Below, piece by piece: positions 1-16,552 of a stretch of 25,604 nt of DNA. The DNA lies in the IMG/VR virus record IMGVR_UViG_3300012231_000044, positions 1 to 25,604 of that record; one strand, written 5' to 3'. Below the pieces are notes generated by a model. It was not told the origin of the DNA. It did no database searches and saw nothing but the letters and a program-made list of their open reading frames with translations. This DNA is from a virus (Duplodnaviria > Caudoviricetes). The position numbers were made by a program, and so were the translations under genes. Each line of letters opens with the position of its first letter. The stretch's first letter is position 1.

Positions 1-2
1 AC

Positions 3-701
3 ATCTTCCACGCCCAGGGGAAGATCTACGAGGAGAGCGCGTCCAGGATGTTCAGCGTCCCCCTGGACCGGGTCGACAAGAAGCTCCGGGCGAAGGGGAA
101 GATCGCCGAGCTGGCCCTGGGTTACCAGGGATCCACCGGGTCCCTGATCTCTATGGGCGCCCTCACGATGGGCCTGGAACCGAGAGAGCTCCAGCCCCTG
201 GTCGACGCCTGGAGATATGCGAACCCCAAGATCGTCCAGCTGTGGGAGGACCTGGAGGACTCGGTGATCGAGGCCCTCCTGGATGGCCACAGTAAGCTGG
301 GCCCGCTCCGCTTCATCCACCTGAAGGGGACCCTCTACATCCAGCTACCCAGCGGGCGACGCCTGGCCTACGCCAGCGCCCGCGTGGAGCGATGGCAGGG
401 CCGCCAGACTGTGGGCTTTATGGCCTGGATCCAGGGGAAGTGGCAGAAGGACCGACTCTATGGTGGAAGGATCGCGGAGAACGTGGTCCAGGCCATCGCC
501 AGGGACATCCTGGCGGAGAAGATGCTGATCCTGGACAAGACCGGCTTCCGTATTATCTCCACCATCCACGACGAGATCCTGATGGAGGGGGAGCCTGGCG
601 ATCTGGCCAAGGCCCTGAAGGTTATGGCCTGGCCGGTCGCCTGGGCTCCCGGTCTACCCCTGACCGCGGACGGATTTGAATCACCGTATTTTAAAAAATA
701 A
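3..701 (+). CDS. Family A (Pol I-like) phage DNA polymerase, C-terminal part; 5'-truncated by the window edge
   Basis: Frame is open from position 3 (IFHAQGKIYEESASRMF...). Motif B RAKGKIAELALGYQG, ENVVQAIARD and motif C TIHDE are present. Confidence 0.93.
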   Translation: MFHAQGKIYEESASRMFSVPLDRVDKKLRAKGKIAELALGYQGSTGSLISMGALTMGLEPRELQPLVDAWRYANPKIVQLWEDLEDSVIEALLDGHSKLGPLRFIHLKGTLYIQLPSGRRLAYASARVERWQGRQTVGFMAWIQGKWQKDRLYGGRIAENVVQAIARDILAEKMLILDKTGFRIISTIHDEILMEGEPGDLAKALKVMAWPVAWAPGLPLTADGFESPYFKK

Positions 702-711
702 CCAACCAAGT

Positions 712-1359
712 ATGAACCAAGAACTAGAGCAACTAATCGAGAAGCTGGAAGGACTGAGAGAGGCCGCCAAGCGGGCCCACCTGGAGGACAAGGCGATCGC
801 CTTCGACATCGCTGTGAATAACGCCAAGGCCATGATCAGGAGCCGGCCGGTGGAAGACTTCGGGACCGTCCCCGAAGAACTGAGCGCGATCCTGGACGAG
901 CTCCGGAGAGCCACCGGACGGGCCGAGTCGGTCACCCAGGCCAGCACCCTGAAGGACGTGGCGGCCATGATCCAGGGACGCCTGGCGGAGATCTCCCCCA
1001 GGATGGCAGCCGAGCGCCGGATCCAGGATATGAAGCACCCGACCAAGGTGGAGCTGGAGGACCTGGGTGGACCCAGGAAGACGATCGAGGTCCAGACCGA
1101 CGACGGCCGCCTGAAGGTCGGAAGGCTCAGCCACGAGGAAGCCCAGCTCCACCGCGGCGTCCCCTCCTGGGTGGTGAAGATGATCCGCTTCCTGGTCTTC
1201 ATCCCCCTGGCCTTCGTGGCCTGGGTCATCCTGATCGGATGGCTGGCGGGGGAAGGCGGGACGACCGTCACCGGGCGGATCTGTGCCTCGGTGGCTGGGC
1301 TGATCTGGCTCCTGGTAATCACCGCATACATCCACGAATTTAATCAACGACATCCATGA
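712..1359 (+). CDS. Hypothetical membrane-anchored protein with two C-terminal hydrophobic helices
   Basis: ATG 712 follows an A-rich leader, preferred over track start 676. Hydrophobic stretches FLVFIPLAFVAWVILIGWL and ICASVAGLIWLLVITAYI. ATGA overlap with the next gene. Confidence 0.75.
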   Translation: MNQELEQLIEKLEGLREAAKRAHLEDKAIAFDIAVNNAKAMIRSRPVEDFGTVPEELSAILDELRRATGRAESVTQASTLKDVAAMIQGRLAEISPRMAAERRIQDMKHPTKVELEDLGGPRKTIEVQTDDGRLKVGRLSHEEAQLHRGVPSWVVKMIRFLVFIPLAFVAWVILIGWLAGEGGTTVTGRICASVAGLIWLLVITAYIHEFNQRHP

Positions 1360-3770
1360 ACAAGCTAGACATCGCCGTGGCCCTGGCCCGCGGCCAGAAG
1401 AACATGAAGACCTGGCGCAATAAGCCGATGACCTGGGAGGAGCTGGTCGCCAGGACGGCCGCCGTGAAGCGGACCGCTGAGACGGTCATCGAATACTGGG
1501 CCATGCCTAAGGAGGAGCGGGGCCTGATCAAGACCCAGGCCGGCGGCTACTTCGGCGGCTACCTGACCGGCGGGCTGAGGCGCAAGGGCCAGGTCCTCCA
1601 CCGCCAGCTCCTCACCCTGGACGCTGATCAGGCGGGGGCCGACTTCTGGGACGTCCTGGAGCTGGTCCTCCCTGGGATGGCAGCGGTCGCCTACTCGACC
1701 CACAGCTCCACCAGGGACCGGCCCAGGCTGAGGCTGATCATCCCCCTGAAGACTGTAGTAAGTGAGGAACAATATCAGCCCCTGGCCAGAGCCGTGGCCG
1801 AGCTCCTGGGGATGAACCGCTTCGACGCTACCAGCTACCAGGCGACTCAGCTGATGTACTGGCCCAGCGCCTCGGCCGATGGCCCCTTCGCCTGGGCTGA
1901 ACAGAAGGGCGACTGGCTGGACCCTGAACAGCTCCTGGCCTTCCGCTACCCAGGAGGATGGCAAGATATAAGCGCCTGGCCGATGGGTGACGGGGAACAG
2001 CTGAAAGAATACGAGGGCAAGGCTGGAGAGCTGGCCGCGGATCCGACCCAGAAGCCTGGCTGGATCGGCGCCTTCTGTAGGGCCTACCGGATCGAGGAAG
2101 CGATCGCCACCTTCCTGGGTGATGTCTACCAGGAGGAGGACGATGGCCGCTACACCTACAAGGGTGGCAGCACGACCCACGGCGTGATCCTTTTCGCTGA
2201 TGGCCACGCCAAGAGCTACCACGACACCGACCCGGCGGGCGGTCGGCCTAGGAACGCCTTCGACCTGGTGAGGATCCACCTCTTCGGAGAGCTGGACCTG
2301 AAGGCTGACCTGGACCGGGATCACCCAGGGAGCTGGCCATCCTTCAAGCGGATGGAACAGCTTTGTCTGAACGACGCCGAGGTCCGGGAAGAGTGGAGCC
2401 AGGAAGACCCGGCTGGCTTCTTCCAGGAAGAGGAAGGGGATGAGCCTGGGCTGGTGGATGAAGTGAAGCCACCGACCAAGAAGTGGAGGGGGCTCCTGAA
2501 GATGAACCGCTCCGGCTTCCTGAAGACCCTGAACAACTTCGTCCTGATCCTACAGAACGATCCCAGGCTGAAGGGCCGGCTGAAGTTTAACGAGTTCACC
2601 AGGAAGGGACTGATCGATGGCCGCGGCTTCACCGACGCGGATCTCAGCGACGTGAGGCTGATCATTGAGAAGGACTACAACAACCTGAGCCACAAAGATC
2701 TCACCCAGGAGGCCGTCCAGGTAGTGATGAAGGAGGGCGCCTTCCACCCGGTCCGCGATTACCTGGCAGCGGCCAGGAGATCCTGGGACGGGGAGCGGAG
2801 GCTGGACCGTCTCCTGGTGGACTACCTGGGCGCGGAGGATAATGACTACACGAGAGCCGTGACCAGGACGACCCTGGTGGCAGCGGTCGCCAGGATCCAC
2901 CGCCCTGGGATCAAGTTCGACCACGTCCTGACCCTGGTCGGTCCCCAGGGAGCTGGCAAGTCCACCCTGGTGGCCCGCCTGGGTGGCGCCTGGTACTCCG
3001 ACAGCCTGACCACCGTCCAGGGGAAGGAAGCCGCGGAGCTCCTGGCTGGCTTCTGGCTGATCGAGATGGGAGAGCTGGCCGGTCTACGGAAGCACGAGGC
3101 CGAGATCATAAAGAACTTTATCAGCCGGCCGGAGGACGTCTTCCGGGCCGCCTATGGAAGGAACACCGAGGCCCACCCCAGAGAGTGTATATTTATAGGG
3201 ACCACTAACACCGAGGGCTTCCTGAAGGACGCGACCGGGAACCGCCGCTTCTGGCCGGTCCCTGTCACCGGCGGGAAGACTTCGCTGAACGTCTGGCGGG
3301 ATCTCCGGGAGGCCGACGTCCTCCAGATCTGGGGCGAAGCCGTGGCCGCCTGGGAAGACGGGGAGCCGATCTACCTGGACCGGGAGATGGAACAGAAAGC
3401 CAGGGAGCGCCAGGAGGACCACCACGAGGTCGATGACCGGGCCACCCTGATCCAGGACTACCTGGAGATCCTTCTCCCATCGGGCTGGGACCAGATGGAT
3501 CTGGATGAGCGGATCCGGTGGCTGGATGGCCTGAAGGGGGACGACAGTCTCCAGGCCAGGGGGACGGTCCGGCGCCAGAAAGTTAGCGCGGCGGAGATCT
3601 GGCTGGAATGTTTACGCGGGGCAGCGGAGCGGATGGACAGCAACCGGACCAAGCCGATCCACGATATAATGAAGAAGCTGGAGGGCTGGGAGCGGGCGCC
3701 CTGGATGAAGCGGGGGCCTTACGGTAAGGTAATTACCTACATAAGGGCGGCTAAAACTGGGGAAGCATGA
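1356..3770 (+). CDS. Primase/helicase of the virulence-associated protein E (VirE/VapE) type
   Basis: N-terminal primase-like motifs LTLDAD, YSTHS, RLRLIIPL. VirE-type ATPase with FHPVRDYL, Walker A GPQGAGKST, IEMGEL, FIGTTN, DATGNRRFWP. Confidence 0.9.
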   Translation: MNKLDIAVALARGQKNMKTWRNKPMTWEELVARTAAVKRTAETVIEYWAMPKEERGLIKTQAGGYFGGYLTGGLRRKGQVLHRQLLTLDADQAGADFWDVLELVLPGMAAVAYSTHSSTRDRPRLRLIIPLKTVVSEEQYQPLARAVAELLGMNRFDATSYQATQLMYWPSASADGPFAWAEQKGDWLDPEQLLAFRYPGGWQDISAWPMGDGEQLKEYEGKAGELAADPTQKPGWIGAFCRAYRIEEAIATFLGDVYQEEDDGRYTYKGGSTTHGVILFADGHAKSYHDTDPAGGRPRNAFDLVRIHLFGELDLKADLDRDHPGSWPSFKRMEQLCLNDAEVREEWSQEDPAGFFQEEEGDEPGLVDEVKPPTKKWRGLLKMNRSGFLKTLNNFVLILQNDPRLKGRLKFNEFTRKGLIDGRGFTDADLSDVRLIIEKDYNNLSHKDLTQEAVQVVMKEGAFHPVRDYLAAARRSWDGERRLDRLLVDYLGAEDNDYTRAVTRTTLVAAVARIHRPGIKFDHVLTLVGPQGAGKSTLVARLGGAWYSDSLTTVQGKEAAELLAGFWLIEMGELAGLRKHEAEIIKNFISRPEDVFRAAYGRNTEAHPRECIFIGTTNTEGFLKDATGNRRFWPVPVTGGKTSLNVWRDLREADVLQIWGEAVAAWEDGEPIYLDREMEQKARERQEDHHEVDDRATLIQDYLEILLPSGWDQMDLDERIRWLDGLKGDDSLQARGTVRRQKVSAAEIWLECLRGAAERMDSNRTKPIHDIMKKLEGWERAPWMKRGPYGKVITYIRAAKTGEA

Positions 3771-3990
3771 GCGCGACCCCAGCACCTTCCCCAGGCGCGA
3801 CCCCAGGGGCGTCCCAGGCTGGTGGCGGCTTCCGGGCTATCGGGGAAGGTGGGGAAGCGAATTTATATAGAGGTAGAAATATAATATATAGGGGGGATGG
3901 GCCTGGGGGCGCCCGCGTAATATGTGCACCCGCGTAAGCATTTAGGAAACGCATGGAAAAACGCTACCCCACCAACCCCGCTACCCCAGG
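3727..3990. promoter_or_regulatory. Candidate phage replication origin with short direct and inverted repeats around an AT-rich core
   Basis: Palindrome AGGTAATTACCT 3727-3738; GCGCGACCCCAG x2 (3771, 3795); inverted pair CACCTTCCCC 3783-3792 / GGGGAAGGTG 3842-3851; AT-rich 3859-3890; CCCGCGTAA x2 (3912, 3929); CGCTACCCCA x2 (3962, 3979). Lies directly after the primase/helicase gene. Confidence 0.55.
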
Positions 3991-4008
3991 CAAGAAAAAC
4001 CGACAAAT

Positions 4009-4296
4009 ATGGAGAGCATAGAAAAAAGGATCGAGCAGAAACTAAAGGACGGCGTCAAGCGCCAGGGAGGCCTGGCCCTGAAGCTGTGGCCGATCTCCTT
4101 CACCGGATTACCGGACCGGATGGTCCTGTTACCAGGGGCCAGGATCGACTTCATCGAGCTGAAGGACCTGAAGGAAGGGCCAAGCCCCCGCCAGCTATAC
4201 GTCCACCGCCAGCTCCGGGAGCTGGGCTTCAATGTATTTACTTTAAACACCGACCTAGCGGTCGAGAATTACTTAACATCAATTCAACAATTATGA
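4009..4296 (+). CDS. VRR-NUC domain nuclease (PD-(D/E)xK)
   Basis: GLPDR...FIELK...PRQ motifs, 95 aa, usual position between primase and SNF2 helicase. Confidence 0.9.
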   Translation: MESIEKRIEQKLKDGVKRQGGLALKLWPISFTGLPDRMVLLPGARIDFIELKDLKEGPSPRQLYVHRQLRELGFNVFTLNTDLAVENYLTSIQQL

Positions 4297-4568
4297 GAGC
4301 AATCCAAGTAAGACCAGGGACTCAGTCCATTTACACCGACCAGGCTGACTATGTCGGCGAGATCCGGGGCCAGGACTACCTGAACGAGATCGTCCGCCGC
4401 TTTAATGGCTTCGCCGCCCAGGAAGAACAGCTCCAGGATCTGAAGGATGAGCTGGCCGAGATCAAGCGGGACCGGGATGGCCAGAAGGACAGGATCCAGG
4501 ACCTGGAGCAAGAGGTCGAGGATCTCCAGGGCGAGATCAATGACAGGGAGGTGGACGATGAGATCTAA
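4293..4568 (+). CDS. Hypothetical coiled-coil protein, 91 aa
   Basis: ATGA overlap with the VRR-NUC stop. Acidic heptad-like C-terminal half (LQDLKDELAEIK...IQDLEQEVEDLQGEI). Corresponds to the 3' part of track ORF 3924..4568. Confidence 0.75.
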   Translation: MRAIQVRPGTQSIYTDQADYVGEIRGQDYLNEIVRRFNGFAAQEEQLQDLKDELAEIKRDRDGQKDRIQDLEQEVEDLQGEINDREVDDEI

Positions 4569-5928: not shown

Positions 5929-6124
5929 ATTCACCGCGGTCTTCCAGATCCAGGGGATGGATGAAGAGCGGTCTATCCCGATGGACCTGGCGACTGTGAC
6001 CAACTGGATCACCCAACGTAAAAAAATGTATCGTGAACTACTAGCCAGGCGCCGGTGGAGGCTCTTCCTGGAGACAGAGAGCCGGCCGGACCTGGCTAAA
6101 AAAACTGAAACGTATGAGCAATGA
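5918..6124 (+). CDS. Hypothetical protein, 68 aa
   Basis: Overlaps both neighbours by 11 nt and has an A-rich leader. Confidence 0.6.
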   Translation: MKRKFTAVFQIQGMDEERSIPMDLATVTNWITQRKKMYRELLARRRWRLFLETESRPDLAKKTETYEQ

Positions 6125-6371
6125 GCTATTTATCGCTGGAAGCCTGGAAGAAATCATCGAGGCGAACCCGGAGAAAACCTTCCTTTCGGCGGATGGCCTG
6201 GAGGGCGCTGTTATTGGCTACAAAGGGGAGCGCCTGGTTTATTCTGTGGCGAAGTGTATCGACATCCTGATGGAGGATATGAGTCGGGAGGACGCCCTGG
6301 AATATTTTGACTTTAACACCAGGGACGCCTATGTCGGGGAACAGACCCCGATCTGGATGGAAGACCTATAA
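6114..6371 (+). CDS. Small acidic phage hypothetical protein, 85 aa
   Basis: Pattern ADGLEGAVIG...RLVYS...EDALEYFDFN...AYVGEQTPI resembles a small uncharacterised phage family (recognised from memory, not searched). Confidence 0.75.
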   Translation: MSNELFIAGSLEEIIEANPEKTFLSADGLEGAVIGYKGERLVYSVAKCIDILMEDMSREDALEYFDFNTRDAYVGEQTPIWMEDL

Positions 6372-6402
6372 ACGAAAGGGCCCCGGAGGGAACTCCAGGG
6401 CC
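6371..6402 (-). terminator. Hairpin, probable intrinsic terminator (better on the minus strand, possibly bidirectional)
   Basis: Minus strand GGCCCTGGAG-TTCC-CTCCGGGGCC followed by CTTTCGTTT. The one imperfect pair is U-G on the minus strand but C-A on the plus strand. Confidence 0.6.
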
Positions 6403-6471
6403 GTCTTGTTTGACTTATCGGTCATCCAATACCCATTAACTCAAACTTCTATATCCTAGCGGAAAATACAT

Positions 6472-6495
6472 AAAAAAGCCGGACTTTCGTCCGGC
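6472..6495 (-). terminator. Intrinsic terminator on the minus strand
   Basis: Minus strand GCCGGAC-GAAA-GTCCGGC-TTTTTT: perfect 7-bp stem, GNRA loop, T6 tract. Confidence 0.8.
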
Positions 6496-6523
6496 CACCA
6501 ATTCAACCCAAGTATGACCAAGA
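6472..6523 (-). ncRNA. Candidate ~50-nt small antisense RNA
   Basis: Bounded by a TATTTTTG promoter element (6534-6527) and the terminator at 6495-6472. Its 5' 20 nt are complementary to 703-722, the start region of the ORF at 712. Confidence 0.5.
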
Positions 6524-6526
6524 GGC

Positions 6527-6534
6527 CAAAAATA
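6527..6534 (-). promoter_or_regulatory. Bacteroidota-type -7 promoter element, leftward
   Basis: Minus strand TATTTTTG is an exact match to TAnnTTTG. No convincing -33 TTTG at the expected spacing. Confidence 0.5.
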
Positions 6535-6541
6535 GGGATTA

Positions 6542-6558
6542 ATCAACACTATGTTGAT
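6542..6558. promoter_or_regulatory. Operator-like inverted repeat between divergent promoter elements
   Basis: ATCAACA-CTA-TGTTGAT, perfect 7-bp arms with a 3-bp spacer. Confidence 0.5.
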
Positions 6559-6590
6559 AAAATAACGCTGAATTAATCACATAACCCGCC

Positions 6591-6598
6591 TAATATTG
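6591..6598 (+). promoter_or_regulatory. Candidate late promoter -7 element for the packaging operon
   Basis: TAATATTG (one mismatch to TAnnTTTG), 5 nt before the TerS ATG. Confidence 0.45.
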
Positions 6599-6603
6599 AA
6601 CCG

Positions 6604-7170
6604 ATGACAACAAAGAAGAAGACCGCAACCAAGCCCAAGGCCCCCGCCCAGGCGCCGGAGATCCCGGTCCAGGGTGGAGGGCTGAAGGTCGCCCAGGAAC
6701 CTGGTGAGGTGGTCAAGTGGAGCCCAGCCAACAACCTGACCGACGCGGATCGGGCCAAGGGGCGGGCTGTGGTGGCTGACAAGTCCAACCAGCTAAAGAT
6801 AAAAATGCTGGAGGCGCTAGAGTATAACCTGGGAATCGTCACCCCGGCGGCCGAGATGGCTGGGATCAGGCGGGAGACTCACTACGACTGGATGAAGACC
6901 GACCCGGACTACAAGGCCAAGGTCGAGAGCTTCCAGGACGTCGCCCTGGACTTCGCCGAGCGGAAGCTGATCCAGTCGATCAAGCGGGGATCCGACACCG
7001 CCAATATCTTCTACCTGAAGACCAAGGGCAAGAAGCGGGGCTACATCGAGCGGACCGAGCTGGATATGAGCGGCCAGCTGAATCTTAACTGGAACGAGGT
7101 AAAAAACTATAATGGAGCTAACGATCAAGCAGACGACCGGGATCGACATATTACAGGACCGGAAGACTAG
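6604..7170 (+). CDS. Terminase small subunit
   Basis: HTH-like segment (NLGIVTPAAEMAGIRRETHYDW), IFYLKTKGKKRGY, directly upstream of and overlapping TerL. Confidence 0.8.
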   Translation: MTTKKKTATKPKAPAQAPEIPVQGGGLKVAQEPGEVVKWSPANNLTDADRAKGRAVVADKSNQLKIKMLEALEYNLGIVTPAAEMAGIRRETHYDWMKTDPDYKAKVESFQDVALDFAERKLIQSIKRGSDTANIFYLKTKGKKRGYIERTELDMSGQLNLNWNEVKNYNGANDQADDRDRHITGPED

Positions 7171-8506
7171 GGAGCTCTACTTCGGTGGAGGAGCTGGTGG
7201 AGGGAAGAGCGCCCTGGGATCCTACTGGCTGGGGAAGGTTTGTTGCCTCTACCCAGGATCCAGGTGGATGATGGCCAGGGCGGAGCTGAAGAACCTGAAG
7301 AAGACCACCCTCCAGACCTTCTTCGAGGTGATGGCCAGGCAGGGAGCCCAGGCTGGCTATCATTACCGATACGCCGAACAGTCGGGCGTCATCTACTGGG
7401 CCAACGGGAGCCAGATCGTCCTGGCGGACCTATTCGCCTATCCGGCCGATCCGAACTTCGACGCCCTGGGATCCCTGGAGATCTGTGGGGGCTTCATCGA
7501 CGAGGCGCCCCAGGTGACTGAGAAGGCCAAGGGGATCGTGATCTCCAGGATGAGATATAAGCTAAAACAATATTGCCACCTTTGTGGGAACCAGGAGAAG
7601 GCTGAGATCCTGGAACAGGACGCCAATGGTGAGCCCATCCTGTGGAGGTGCGCCAACGGCCACCGCTCCAGGGGGCTGATCCCCAAGCTCCTGATGACGG
7701 GCAACCCCTCGAAGAACTGGGCCTATTATCAGTTCTACCTGGCCCATAAAGATGGCCAGCTGAGGGAGGACCGGGCCTTCATCCAGGCCCTGGTGAAGGA
7801 CAATAAACATATCCCGGAGGAATACATCAAGACCCTCCTCAGCCTGGACAAGAACAGCCGGGAGAGGCTTCTCCTGGGTAACTGGGAATACGATGACGAT
7901 CCGGCCACCCTGATCGACTTCGAGCGGATAACCCAGATCTACAAGAACGACCACGTCCCAGAAGGGGAGCGCTGGATCACGGCCGACGTCGCCCGCTTCG
8001 GGAAGGACTCCACCGTGATCGGGCTGTGGTCGGGCTTCAGGGTGAAGATCCGCCGCTACCAGGGACTGGCCACCACCCAGGTGACCGCCAAGATCCGGGA
8101 GCTCCAGGAGCGCCACCAGATCCCAAGCTCCAGGGTGATCGTGGACGAGGATGGCCTGGGCGGCGGCGTGGTGGATCAGCTGGGATGTAGGGGCTTCGTG
8201 AATAACTCGACCCCCATCGGCGGGGAGAACTTCAACAACCTAAAAAGTCAATGCTATTTCAAGCTAGCCGAACGGATCAACCAGGGCGGCCTCCTGGTGG
8301 TGGAGGTGGAGGATCACGAGAAGGCCCTGATCACCGAAGAGCTGGAACAGGTCAAACAGGATAAGATGGACTACGATGGCAAGCGCCAGGTCGTCCCCAA
8401 GAACAAGGTCAAGGAACTGATCGGGAGATCTCCCGATTACTCAGATATGCTAATGATGAGAGAGCTGGGGGACCTGGTCCAGGCTCCTGAATTTTTTATA
8501 CTATGA
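7112..8506 (+). CDS. Terminase large subunit
   Basis: Walker A GGGAGGGKS, Walker B FIDEA, motif III TGNP, RERLLLGNW, RNase H-like ADVARFGKDSTV and SPDYSD. Confidence 0.95.
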   Translation: MELTIKQTTGIDILQDRKTRELYFGGGAGGGKSALGSYWLGKVCCLYPGSRWMMARAELKNLKKTTLQTFFEVMARQGAQAGYHYRYAEQSGVIYWANGSQIVLADLFAYPADPNFDALGSLEICGGFIDEAPQVTEKAKGIVISRMRYKLKQYCHLCGNQEKAEILEQDANGEPILWRCANGHRSRGLIPKLLMTGNPSKNWAYYQFYLAHKDGQLREDRAFIQALVKDNKHIPEEYIKTLLSLDKNSRERLLLGNWEYDDDPATLIDFERITQIYKNDHVPEGERWITADVARFGKDSTVIGLWSGFRVKIRRYQGLATTQVTAKIRELQERHQIPSSRVIVDEDGLGGGVVDQLGCRGFVNNSTPIGGENFNNLKSQCYFKLAERINQGGLLVVEVEDHEKALITEELEQVKQDKMDYDGKRQVVPKNKVKELIGRSPDYSDMLMMRELGDLVQAPEFFIL

Positions 8507-14867: not shown

Positions 14868-15416
14868 ATGCCGATAGGAGCTTTGTCCACCATCGTCCCA
14901 GTCACCAGGAGCGTCCTCCTGACCCAGGCCAAGAGCGTCCTGGATCTGGGGATCGGCTTCGGGATTAATGGGGCGGCCGTTCGGAACTGGAAGGACGCCG
15001 GCGTGGAGCCCTTTGAGACCCGCCTGGTAGGCGTGGAAGGCTTCCCCCAGTACAGGACAGCGGTCTGGGATCTCTACGATGAGATCCACGAGATGACCAT
15101 CCAGCAATATCTGAAGACCAAGACCGAGAAGTTCGACGCGATCCTGATGACGGACGTGATCGAGCATTTCGATAAAGAGGAGGCCCTCCTGGTGATCTCC
15201 AGGATGAAGGATCTCCTGAACCGCCGCGGCGTGATCGTGATCGTCACCCCCGCCATCTGGATCAATCAGGGAGCCTACAGAGGCAACGAGCTAGAGACCC
15301 ATAAATCACTATGGACCCCGGACGACTTCCGCGCCCTGGGCTTTGCTATCATCCAGGACGGAAGCCTGGACCCGTATGGCTACCGGATGATCGTGGCCGA
15401 ATACCTGTATAAATGA
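14868..15416 (+). CDS. Class I SAM-dependent methyltransferase (small-molecule or sugar type)
   Basis: Motif I VLDLGIGFG, acidic residue in GVEGF, FDAILMTDVIEHF, IVIVTP. No DPPY/NPPY or PC DNA-methylase motif. Confidence 0.85.
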   Translation: MPIGALSTIVPVTRSVLLTQAKSVLDLGIGFGINGAAVRNWKDAGVEPFETRLVGVEGFPQYRTAVWDLYDEIHEMTIQQYLKTKTEKFDAILMTDVIEHFDKEEALLVISRMKDLLNRRGVIVIVTPAIWINQGAYRGNELETHKSLWTPDDFRALGFAIIQDGSLDPYGYRMIVAEYLYK

Positions 15417-16552
15417 ACAAAAAAATATTAGCCGCCGTCCACCTCTACCCGCCGAAACACCTTTGCGGCGGGGAGATGTATCTCCACCGCCTCCTGAAGA
15501 AGCTCCAGGGAGAAGGCTGTGAGGTCCGCGTCCTCCTTCTCAACGCCCAGTTTTATGGCATTACCAGGGTCTACGTCTACGACGGGATCGAGGTCTACCC
15601 GAACGATCGGGACGTCATCCTGGCGAACCTGGAATGGACGGACGCCTTCATCACCCATTTAGACTACACCCAGCAAGTAATCGGCTACGGCCTGGTCTAC
15701 AAGAAGCCAGTCATCCACCTGGTCCACAATAATCACCGCCGCCCCGATATTCTCCAGGAGAGGATCGGCCAGGCGATAATCTATAACAGCGAGCACGTCG
15801 CCCGCTCGATCGACTACCCCTTCCCTTCCATCGTCCTCCATCCCCCCTGCAACTGGAGGGACTGGGACGATGACCAGGATCACAGCCAGGCGGACTTCAT
15901 CACCCTGGTGAACCTGGACGGGAACAAGGGCGGGAAGATCCTCACCCAGATCGCCCTGGCCATGCCGGACAAGCGCTTCCTGGGCGTGACCGGGAGCTAC
16001 TCCTCCCCACCGGAGGAAGGCCAGCACGTCCGCCAGCCCGCTAACGTGACCGTGATCCCCAAGACTTCCAGGATGAAGTCCGAGGTCTATGGGCGGACCA
16101 GGATCCTGATCGCCCCGTCTAAATATGAGAGCTGGGGGATGGTGATGACTGAGGCGATGGCCTCCGGGATCCCCGTGATCGCCACCGCCCTCCCTGGGCC
16201 GATGGAGAACTGTGGGGAGGCCGGGACCTACATCGAAGACCGTGAAGACATTGACGCCTGGATCCGAGCCATTAGGTCCACGGAAAACCAAACAACCTAC
16301 CACGAGAAGGCCCTGGCGGCGAGACAGAGATCCAGGGAACTGGATCCTGAAGTCGAGCTACAGGTCGCCGCCGACTGGATTAAAAAAGTTAGTTATTTTC
16401 ATTTACTACAGTCTGAAAGGGGGACCGTCTCTACGGCCGCCCCTATTATTTCAAACAGATCCAAGGATGGAAAATTTACCAAGAAAGAAGCCGGAGCGAA
16501 GCCACCAGCCCAAGCGGGAGCGAAGTCACCGGCCAAAAAAGCAACAGCATGA
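15413..16552 (+). CDS. Glycosyltransferase, GT-B fold (GT4 / group 1)
   Basis: YPP...GGE N-terminal loop, NKGG, PSKYESWGMVMTEAMASGIPVI (EX7E signature). Confidence 0.9.
   Translation: MNKKILAAVHLYPPKHLCGGEMYLHRLLKKLQGEGCEVRVLLLNAQFYGITRVYVYDGIEVYPNDRDVILANLEWTDAFITHLDYTQQVIGYGLVYKKPVIHLVHNNHRRPDILQERIGQAIIYNSEHVARSIDYPFPSIVLHPPCNWRDWDDDQDHSQADFITLVNLDGNKGGKILTQIALAMPDKRFLGVTGSYSSPPEEGQHVRQPANVTVIPKTSRMKSEVYGRTRILIAPSKYESWGMVMTEAMASGIPVIATALPGPMENCGEAGTYIEDREDIDAWIRAIRSTENQTTYHEKALAARQRSRELDPEVELQVAADWIKKVSYFHLLQSERGTVSTAAPIISNRSKDGKFTKKEAGAKPPAQAGAKSPAKKATA

What the first reader, a model, noticed from the sequence alone, without database searches (positions are those of the whole stretch)
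6472..6534. Self-contained antisense mini-gene complementary to the start codon of a distant membrane-protein gene
Seen: on the minus strand there is an exact TAnnTTTG element (6534-6527), ~30 nt of unstructured sequence and a perfect GAAA-loop terminator with T6, although every CDS in the window is on the plus strand. Plus-strand 6504-6523 (CAACCCAAGTATGACCAAGA) aligns to 703-722 (CAACCAAGTATGAACCAAGA) at 19 positions with two 1-nt gaps and an exact core CCAAGTATGA that includes the ATG at 712. Established: the Bacteroidota -7 element places the start a few nt downstream, here about 6521-6523, where complementarity begins. Inference: a ~50-nt trans-acting RNA occludes translation initiation of the two-TM early protein, acting as an early-to-late switch or a trans-encoded antitoxin-like RNA.
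Basis: partly seen in the sequence, partly recalled or inferred. Interest (0 to 1): 0.85.

Follow-up and report, generated by a model that had tools for sequence, protein, structure and literature searches.

The report
Phage mini-RNA against replication-gene starts
A virus that likely infects Bacteroidota bacteria keeps, between its replication and packaging genes, a promoter-like site and a terminator-like hairpin that would make a ~50-letter RNA; that RNA's sequence mirrors the start regions of the virus's own DNA polymerase gene and two or three nearby genes, so it likely turns their translation down, but no transcript has been seen.

Summary
The unit sits between the replication and packaging modules of a Bacteroidota-type siphovirus. 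The -7 element, terminator and an upstream palindrome are kept in four lineages; the 20-codon plus-strand ORF is not. The seed also matches the membrane-protein start, ORF 4293 and the SSB leader. The first three beat all 1893 foreign start regions; 0 of 4000 shuffles and 0 of 40 own starts match as well. The targets resemble each other little, so the seed is a composite. Against: no RNA data; gene-for-gene covariation could not be shown; in the one distant relative with targets on its contig the unit resembles that phage's early starts only generically; a family-wide survey was weak after removing duplicates. Best reading (0.6): a trans-acting sRNA that damps translation of the replication operon, possibly switched with the back-to-back late promoter. 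Antitoxin reading unsupported. The scan noted similar units on other DNA before.

The parts
6527..6534 (-). Bacteroidota -7 promoter-like element TATTTTTG (TAnnTTTG); TATTTTCG in L002, TATCTTCG in L003
   Evidence: TAnnTTCG and TAnnTTTG also stand before relative B's early genes
6472..6523 (-). Predicted ~50-nt non-coding RNA (5' end inferred at about 6519-6523)
   Evidence: no transcript observed
6508..6523 (-). 5' seed, complementary to the start codons of the membrane-protein gene (703-722) and DNA polymerase
6497..6508 (-). 3' seed (plus sense ACCAATTCAACC): exact 12-nt match to the DNA polymerase leader, 10 nt to the SSB leader, 9 nt to the ORF 4293 leader; CAATTCAAC occurs 3 times in 29 kb
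6472..6495 (-). Intrinsic-terminator-like hairpin, 7-bp stem, GAAA loop, T6; no T run on the plus strand
   Evidence: 95.9% of cells paired in 7 loci, no compensatory change
6542..6558 (.). Conserved palindrome ATCAACA-CTA-TGTTGAT between the minus-strand promoter and terS; candidate protein-binding site
   Evidence: 98% paired, no compensatory change
6514..6576 (+). 20-codon ORF; length and frame not kept (20, 11 or 7, 18, 14 aa in four lineages); probably not a gene
703..722 (+). Target: start region of the 215-aa two-hydrophobic-segment protein gene (712-1359)
1..701 (+). 3' part of the family A DNA polymerase gene; its start (best target) lies 1218 nt upstream of the window, at L081 2179
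4280..4316 (+). Target: two sites flanking the ATG (4293) of a 91-aa ORF between the endonuclease and helicase genes
6372..6410 (.). Hairpin with T-rich runs on both sides at the end of the replication module; likely bidirectional terminator
6591..7170 (+). TAATATTG (one mismatch from TAnnTTTG) 5 nt before the ATG of the terminase small subunit gene (6604-7170), first gene of the late module

Best explanation
The unit is likely a gene for a ~50-nt trans-acting RNA, read from a host-type -7 promoter on the minus strand, whose open 5' half is complementary to the start regions of the phage's DNA polymerase, membrane-protein, ORF 4293 and SSB genes and would block their translation. Shown: the promoter-like element, the terminator-like hairpin, their conservation, the complementarity and its excess over chance. 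Inferred: transcription, pairing in the cell, repression (by analogy with GibS).
For: Seed 6497-6523 against own starts: membrane gene 15, polymerase 14, ORF 4293 12, SSB 10; highest of 1893 foreign starts 10.5. Duplex energies -33.0 and -26.3 against a foreign minimum of -24.9 among 1419. Top-3 sum 41 reached by 0 of 4000 dinucleotide shuffles, 0 of 4000 ATG-fixed shuffles, 1 of 1416 foreign starts used as query and 0 of 40 own starts. The four targets score only 6-10 against each other, so the seed joins two different leaders. All four are in the replication module; the best late-gene start scores 8. The polymerase start lies outside the window, so it is an independent confirmation. Promoter, terminator and palindrome keep 75-100% identity in L001, L085, L002, L003 while the flanking spacers keep 47-84%. 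The promoter varies only as TAnnTT(T/C)G, forms also found before relative B's early genes. The plus-strand ORF is not conserved. Reciprocal test at score >=10: window seed 4 of 40 own starts and 0 of 31 of B's; B's seed 5 of 31 own and 2 of 40 of the window phage's. Precedent: GibS pairs over start codons in Bacteroides, which lacks SD sequences and Hfq (PMC7366714, passages).
Against: No gene-for-gene covariation: in relative B the polymerase and membrane-gene pairings are not kept (B seed on B polymerase start -17.7, on the window phage's -20.3), and 7 of 31 of B's own starts match the others as well as its unit does. L001, L002, L083-L085 lack the polymerase and membrane-gene starts. In L002 the CAU sits in a palindrome and the pairing to the window phage's targets is weak (-12 to -19). 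No compensatory change in the terminator stem. No -33 TTTG. The ORF 4293 leader also codes for the end of the upstream gene, and that start was added by hand after its hit was seen; its energy falls to -18.7 with a shorter target window. Foreign starts are mostly from AT-richer phages and were called by a simple script. The family-wide survey gave 27 promoter hits against 19 for the reversed pattern after removing duplicates.
Confidence: 0.6

Rival explanations
1. The minus-strand terminator only insulates the replication operon from backward transcription out of the late promoter region, and the middle stretch is a relic copy of a gene start (hairpin-leader-ATG, as before the polymerase gene) or the start site of the plus-strand mini-ORF; any RNA made is noise.
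For: The polymerase leader also follows a hairpin. An ATG is kept in all four lineages. In B the unit behaves like an ordinary early start (7 of 31 as good). The middle is the most indel-rich part of the unit. The -7 match alone has P about 0.04.
Against: The seed is a composite of two leaders that score 7.5 against each other; 0 of 40 real starts match others as well; the ORF's frame and length change; the hairpins differ in sequence; the -7 pattern is kept in four lineages.
Confidence: 0.22
2. CAATTCAA(C) is a tag bound by a protein in the leaders of SSB, polymerase and ORF 4293, and the copy at 6499 is a decoy or a DNA site; the sense of the tag matters, not its complement.
For: The tag occurs at -1869, -1236, 4280, 6499 and 24170, all on the plus strand, at 6-12 nt before the ATG in three genes.
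Against: Does not explain the minus-strand promoter and terminator, nor the separate 15-point match to the membrane-gene start, which lacks the tag.
Confidence: 0.08
3. One reading: the RNA is dedicated to the membrane-protein gene, as an antitoxin-like RNA.
For: Best alignment score (15) is at 703-722; 3 of 5 other homologues found begin MNQELE like the window protein.
Against: Polymerase pairs more strongly; the match is lost in L002 and B; the protein is 215 aa with no family match.
Confidence: 0.06
4. The region is a DNA-level site (packaging start or operator) upstream of terS and the resemblance to gene starts is incidental.
For: Position just before terS; conserved palindrome. That packaging sites often lie near terS is recalled, not tested.
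Against: Does not account for the strand-specific T run or for the statistics.
Confidence: 0.04

Closest known systems
GibS, trans-encoded sRNA of Bacteroides thetaiotaomicron (PMC7366714; passages; section 7)
   Same: Bacteroidota; unstructured 5' seed of about 30 nt pairing over start codons of distant mRNAs; more than one target; no SD sequence and no Hfq/ProQ in the host group.
   Different: Phage-encoded; about 50 nt; targets are the phage's own replication genes; no sequence relation found (Rfam); untested here.
C4 antisense RNA of phages P1/P7 (PMC5320573, passages; PMC8198154, passages)
   Same: Phage RNA that occludes ribosome-binding regions of the phage's own mRNA by short complementary segments.
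   Different: C4 is a processed ~77-nt RNA with three stem-loops acting on icd/ant for lysogeny; this unit is a primary transcript with one terminator hairpin and no Rfam match.
Lambda OOP and aQ, P22 sar (review PMC12197685, section 4 read)
   Same: Small antisense RNAs by which a phage times its own gene expression, some from the replication or late-control region.
   Different: Each is described against one gene of lysis-lysogeny control; that they are encoded opposite their targets is partly recalled. This unit lies 2.2-8.4 kb from its targets and pairs imperfectly.
PreS (lambda) and VpdS (VP882) (10.1101/2024.10.31.621285, passages; PMC12197685)
   Same: Short phage-encoded trans-acting sRNAs linked to replication; VpdS is about 50 nt.
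   Different: Hfq-dependent, Proteobacteria; PreS raises host dnaN, whereas this RNA is predicted to lower phage replication proteins.

Membership tests
Trans-encoded base-pairing sRNA (GibS type) | Own promoter element | tested here: met
   TAnnTTTG at 6534-6527, kept as TAnnTT(T/C)G in four lineages; sequence only, no -33 element
Trans-encoded base-pairing sRNA (GibS type) | Intrinsic terminator | tested here: met
Trans-encoded base-pairing sRNA (GibS type) | Single-stranded seed complementary to start regions of distant mRNAs beyond chance | tested here: met
Trans-encoded base-pairing sRNA (GibS type) | Seed and target change together in relatives | tested here: inconclusive
   only relative B has both; reciprocal preference but not gene for gene
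Trans-encoded base-pairing sRNA (GibS type) | Transcript exists and represses targets | not testable with these tools
   no RNA holder listed
C4 antisense RNA | Match to the Rfam model; three stem-loops | tested here: not met
   one hairpin only
C4 antisense RNA | Processed by RNase P from a longer transcript | not tested
   layout suggests a primary transcript
Cis-encoded phage antisense RNA (OOP/sar/aQ) | Encoded opposite its target with full complementarity | tested here: not met
   targets are 2.2-8.4 kb away; the only overlapped ORF (6514-6576) is not conserved
Type I toxin-antitoxin | Small hydrophobic toxin next to or overlapping the RNA (criterion recalled) | tested here: not met
   overlapped ORF is 20 aa, polar and not conserved; the membrane protein is 215 aa and 5.8 kb away

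The most novel reading that the evidence does not exclude
Bacteroidota phages carry a widespread, undescribed class of ~50-nt promoter-seed-terminator mini-genes whose seeds are stitched together from the start regions of their own early genes and are rewritten as those genes change; here one such RNA, wired back to back with the terminase promoter, shuts down DNA polymerase and its neighbours when packaging starts. Cultured Flavobacterium phage 11b has such a unit and makes the class testable.
Probability: 0.3. Interest if true: 0.78.

Novelty: new variant of a known kind. Interest (0 to 1): 0.57.

Why it matters
Few phage RNAs are known that regulate the phage's own genes in trans, and none turned up for Bacteroidota phages in the searches made. 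These hosts lack SD sequences and Hfq, so a minimal RNA that covers several start codons would show how a small phage times replication without an obvious protein regulator, and would be a compact template for gene silencing in Bacteroidota.

Tried and rejected
Expression: no RNA holder listed; the one run listed (X1, probably DNA) had no contig over 6164-6603; neither is evidence either way. Rfam: only MicC (E 2.3) and H19_3 (E 6), far below their gathering scores; 0 matches at gathering score in 4 sources. No match of 6360-6620 to cultured phages beyond one chance 35-nt hit. More relatives with both seed and targets: the membrane protein found 0 loci, the primase-helicase alignment only relative B and nothing in genome contigs, the polymerase alignment 80 loci of which 2 are B and the rest 40-49% identical, the leader pattern 2 unrelated loci. 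The terminator pattern scan gave 18 loci, 4 of this lineage and 14 unrelated. A second unit at 6403-6466 was tested: best own start score 8, inside the foreign range, and its promoter-like site misses the consensus; not claimed. The palindrome as a DnaA box: half of it reads TGTTGATAA; a search gave 3 papers, seen as listing only, none on Bacteroidota by title; left open. Family survey: one search gave 16 hits at 30-49 nt against 3 in a control among 136 terminators, but included duplicates; the deduplicated, looser survey gave 27 against 19, so the class is not claimed as shown. One search had the palindrome columns misplaced and was repeated. Supplements of the papers were not read; sRNA tables there could list similar RNAs.

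Full report
Setting. The window is part of a tailed phage: DNA polymerase, primase-helicase, endonuclease and SNF2-type helicase, then terS, terL, portal, protease, capsid and tail genes, all on the plus strand. All named matches of terL among cultured phages are Bacteroidota phages (17 of 20 records, 3 unnamed), the best Flavobacterium phage 11b at 50%, so the host is likely Bacteroidota. The finding lies in the 232-nt gap between the last replication-module gene (ends 6371) and terS (6604). Locus L081 is the same phage (99.95% over 10,189 nt) and adds 3397 nt upstream: DUF2800, a 101-aa ORF, SSB and the polymerase start. About 9.4 kb of its 38,361-nt contig was not seen.

Observation. All coordinates hold. 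The -7 consensus TAnnTTTG, the weak -33 element, the lack of SD sequences and the A-rich start context of Bacteroidota are taken from PMC7366714 (passages). Because starts in these phages look alike, shared context was the first thing to exclude.

Targets. A scan of the seed over 29 kb, both strands, ranked 703-722 first (score 15), the polymerase start second (14), 4300 third (12), and the SSB leader fifth (10). The polymerase leader holds ACCAATTCAACC exactly and then TATGACC-AGA; the predicted duplex is -33.0 kcal/mol against -26.3 for the membrane gene. With the full RNA and local mRNA folded together the gains are -26.4 (polymerase), -25.4 (712), -24.5 (4293), -21.1 (SSB), against -16.0 (terS), -12.9 (primase-helicase), -11.4 (terL) and -8.3 (capsid) (8 starts chosen by hand). 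Controls: none of 1419 foreign starts scored above 10.5 or paired below -24.9, likewise none of 1893. The top-3 sum of 41 was reached by 0 of 4000 dinucleotide shuffles, 0 of 4000 ATG-fixed shuffles and 1 of 1416 foreign starts used as queries, and by 0 of 40 own starts. The targets score 6-10 against one another, so the seed is not a copy of one leader. Limits: starts were called by my own script, five window starts (4293, 4558, 10001, 12093, 13602) were added by hand, 4293 after its hit was seen, and the foreign set is AT-richer than this phage.

Conservation. The unit is present in L083 and L084 (98%), L001/L086 and L085 (86-88%), L002 (79%) and L003 (70%). Identity to the window in L001, L085, L002, L003: terminator 1.0, 1.0, 0.86, 0.79; -7 element 1.0, 1.0, 0.88, 0.75; palindrome region 1.0, 1.0, 1.0, 0.77; flanking spacers 0.47-0.84; the seed carries indels. 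CAATTCAACC is kept in all but L003. The -7 site reads TATTTTTG, TATTTTTG, TATTTTCG, TATCTTCG, and relative B (L003, G016) has TATGTTCG, TATGTTTG and TATATTTG before its early genes. Neither hairpin shows a compensatory change.

Covariation. Only relative B has seed and targets on one contig. At score >=10 the window seed hits 4 of 40 own starts and 0 of 31 of B's; B's seed hits 5 of 31 own (three early cassettes, primase-helicase, a small membrane gene) and 2 of 40 of the window phage's. But B's pairing to polymerase and to the membrane gene is not kept (an HNH gene is inserted before B's polymerase and the membrane protein has another N-terminus), and 7 of 31 of B's own starts are as good a match to the others as its unit. 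So B fits a seed that follows its own early starts, and fits a relic start equally well.

Wider class. A pattern scan found 14 loci, 7 distinct by eye, with -7 element, anti-start core and a hairpin with T run; the pattern itself demanded the core and a G run. Unselected terL relatives gave 16 against 3 before and 27 against 19 after removing duplicates and loosening the rules; 78 polymerase-relative loci gave 12 against 17; the anti-start core was in 5 of 26 units and 17 of 270 other pre-terminator stretches (p 0.033, one unit counted twice). Of 22 units tested in 20 records, 3 had an own target above all foreign starts. The class is suggested, not shown. Earlier notes of this scan describe like units on other DNA; they are unchecked and not counted as support; none covers this sequence.

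Mechanism. Shown: anatomy, conservation, complementarity. Inferred: host RNA polymerase makes a ~50-nt RNA; its open 5' half covers the A/C-rich leader and AUG of polymerase and of three neighbours in the same module and blocks ribosome loading, as GibS does without SD or Hfq. Timing is the weakest step: the promoter lacks the TACACGA seen upstream of B's early promoters, faces away from terS, and shares with it a conserved palindrome, which suggests joint control with late genes. A steady brake from the start of infection, or a role in a dormant state, is not excluded; no integrase was seen in 29 kb here or between B's tail and early genes, but both are incomplete.

Known kinds. It works like GibS and, among phage RNAs, like C4; it is not a C4 member, not cis-encoded like OOP, sar or aQ, and not a type I toxin-antitoxin pair. 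Seven searches showed no paper on such RNAs in Bacteroidota phages; the library lacks most subscription papers, and supplements were not read. PMC9723704 (passages) added only general background; PMC5312081 was seen as a listing only.

Verdict. Real element, likely a trans-acting anti-start sRNA (0.6) with DNA polymerase as the main target; new variant of a known kind; interest 0.57, held down by the lack of a transcript and of gene-for-gene covariation.

Noticed in passing
L120 (Flavobacterium phage 11b) 30325-30400, + strand: TATATTTG, then a U-rich stretch with TTTTCATAG (anti-start), then a terminator; same layout in a cultured phage. Own targets not above foreign (best 15, 8 of 1868 foreign as good).
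   Followed up: partly
G004 26487; L208 4471; G005 14541; L041; G009 20172; G010 10406; G012 23790; G013 24757; G014 8884; L214: Further promoter-antistart-terminator units in AT-rich phages; own best match above all foreign starts in G004 and L208 only. Most were found by a pattern that demanded the anti-start core.
   Followed up: partly
window 6403-6466; L002 1150-1315; L003 8100-8225: A possible second minus-strand unit left of the terminator (TATTTTCC-like site, open stretch, hairpin 6372-6410); L002 has an extra hairpin unit inserted, giving three in tandem. No target found in the sequence at hand.
   Followed up: partly
G016 6030-8320: Relative B's early genes come in cassettes: TACACGA upstream, a GTGCAC-GAAA-GTGCAC palindrome in two of them, TAnnTT(T/C)GC, and GGGGCC-TNCG-GGCCCC hairpins just before three leaders.
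   Followed up: no
window 6591-6604: TAATATTG lies 5 nt before the terS ATG and is kept in L001, L002, L085; terS mRNA may be leaderless.
   Followed up: no
L081 2122-2158: A terminator-like hairpin with a T run lies between the SSB gene and the polymerase leader; in relative B an HNH gene is inserted after the same kind of hairpin.
   Followed up: partly
window 3767-4008: GC-rich repeats (GCGCGACCCCAG twice) around an AT-rich patch after the primase-helicase gene; origin-like.
   Followed up: no
window 14868-16552: A methyltransferase and a group 1 glycosyltransferase gene sit between the capsid and head-tail adaptor genes.
   Followed up: no
window 712-1359; L119 6923-7687; P0002-P0006: The membrane protein family keeps its C-terminal hydrophobic part and swaps N-termini (DUF7768 in relative B).
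   Followed up: partly
window 4293-4568, 4558: A 91-aa ORF starts at 4293; the helicase more likely starts at 4558 than at 4447.
   Followed up: partly
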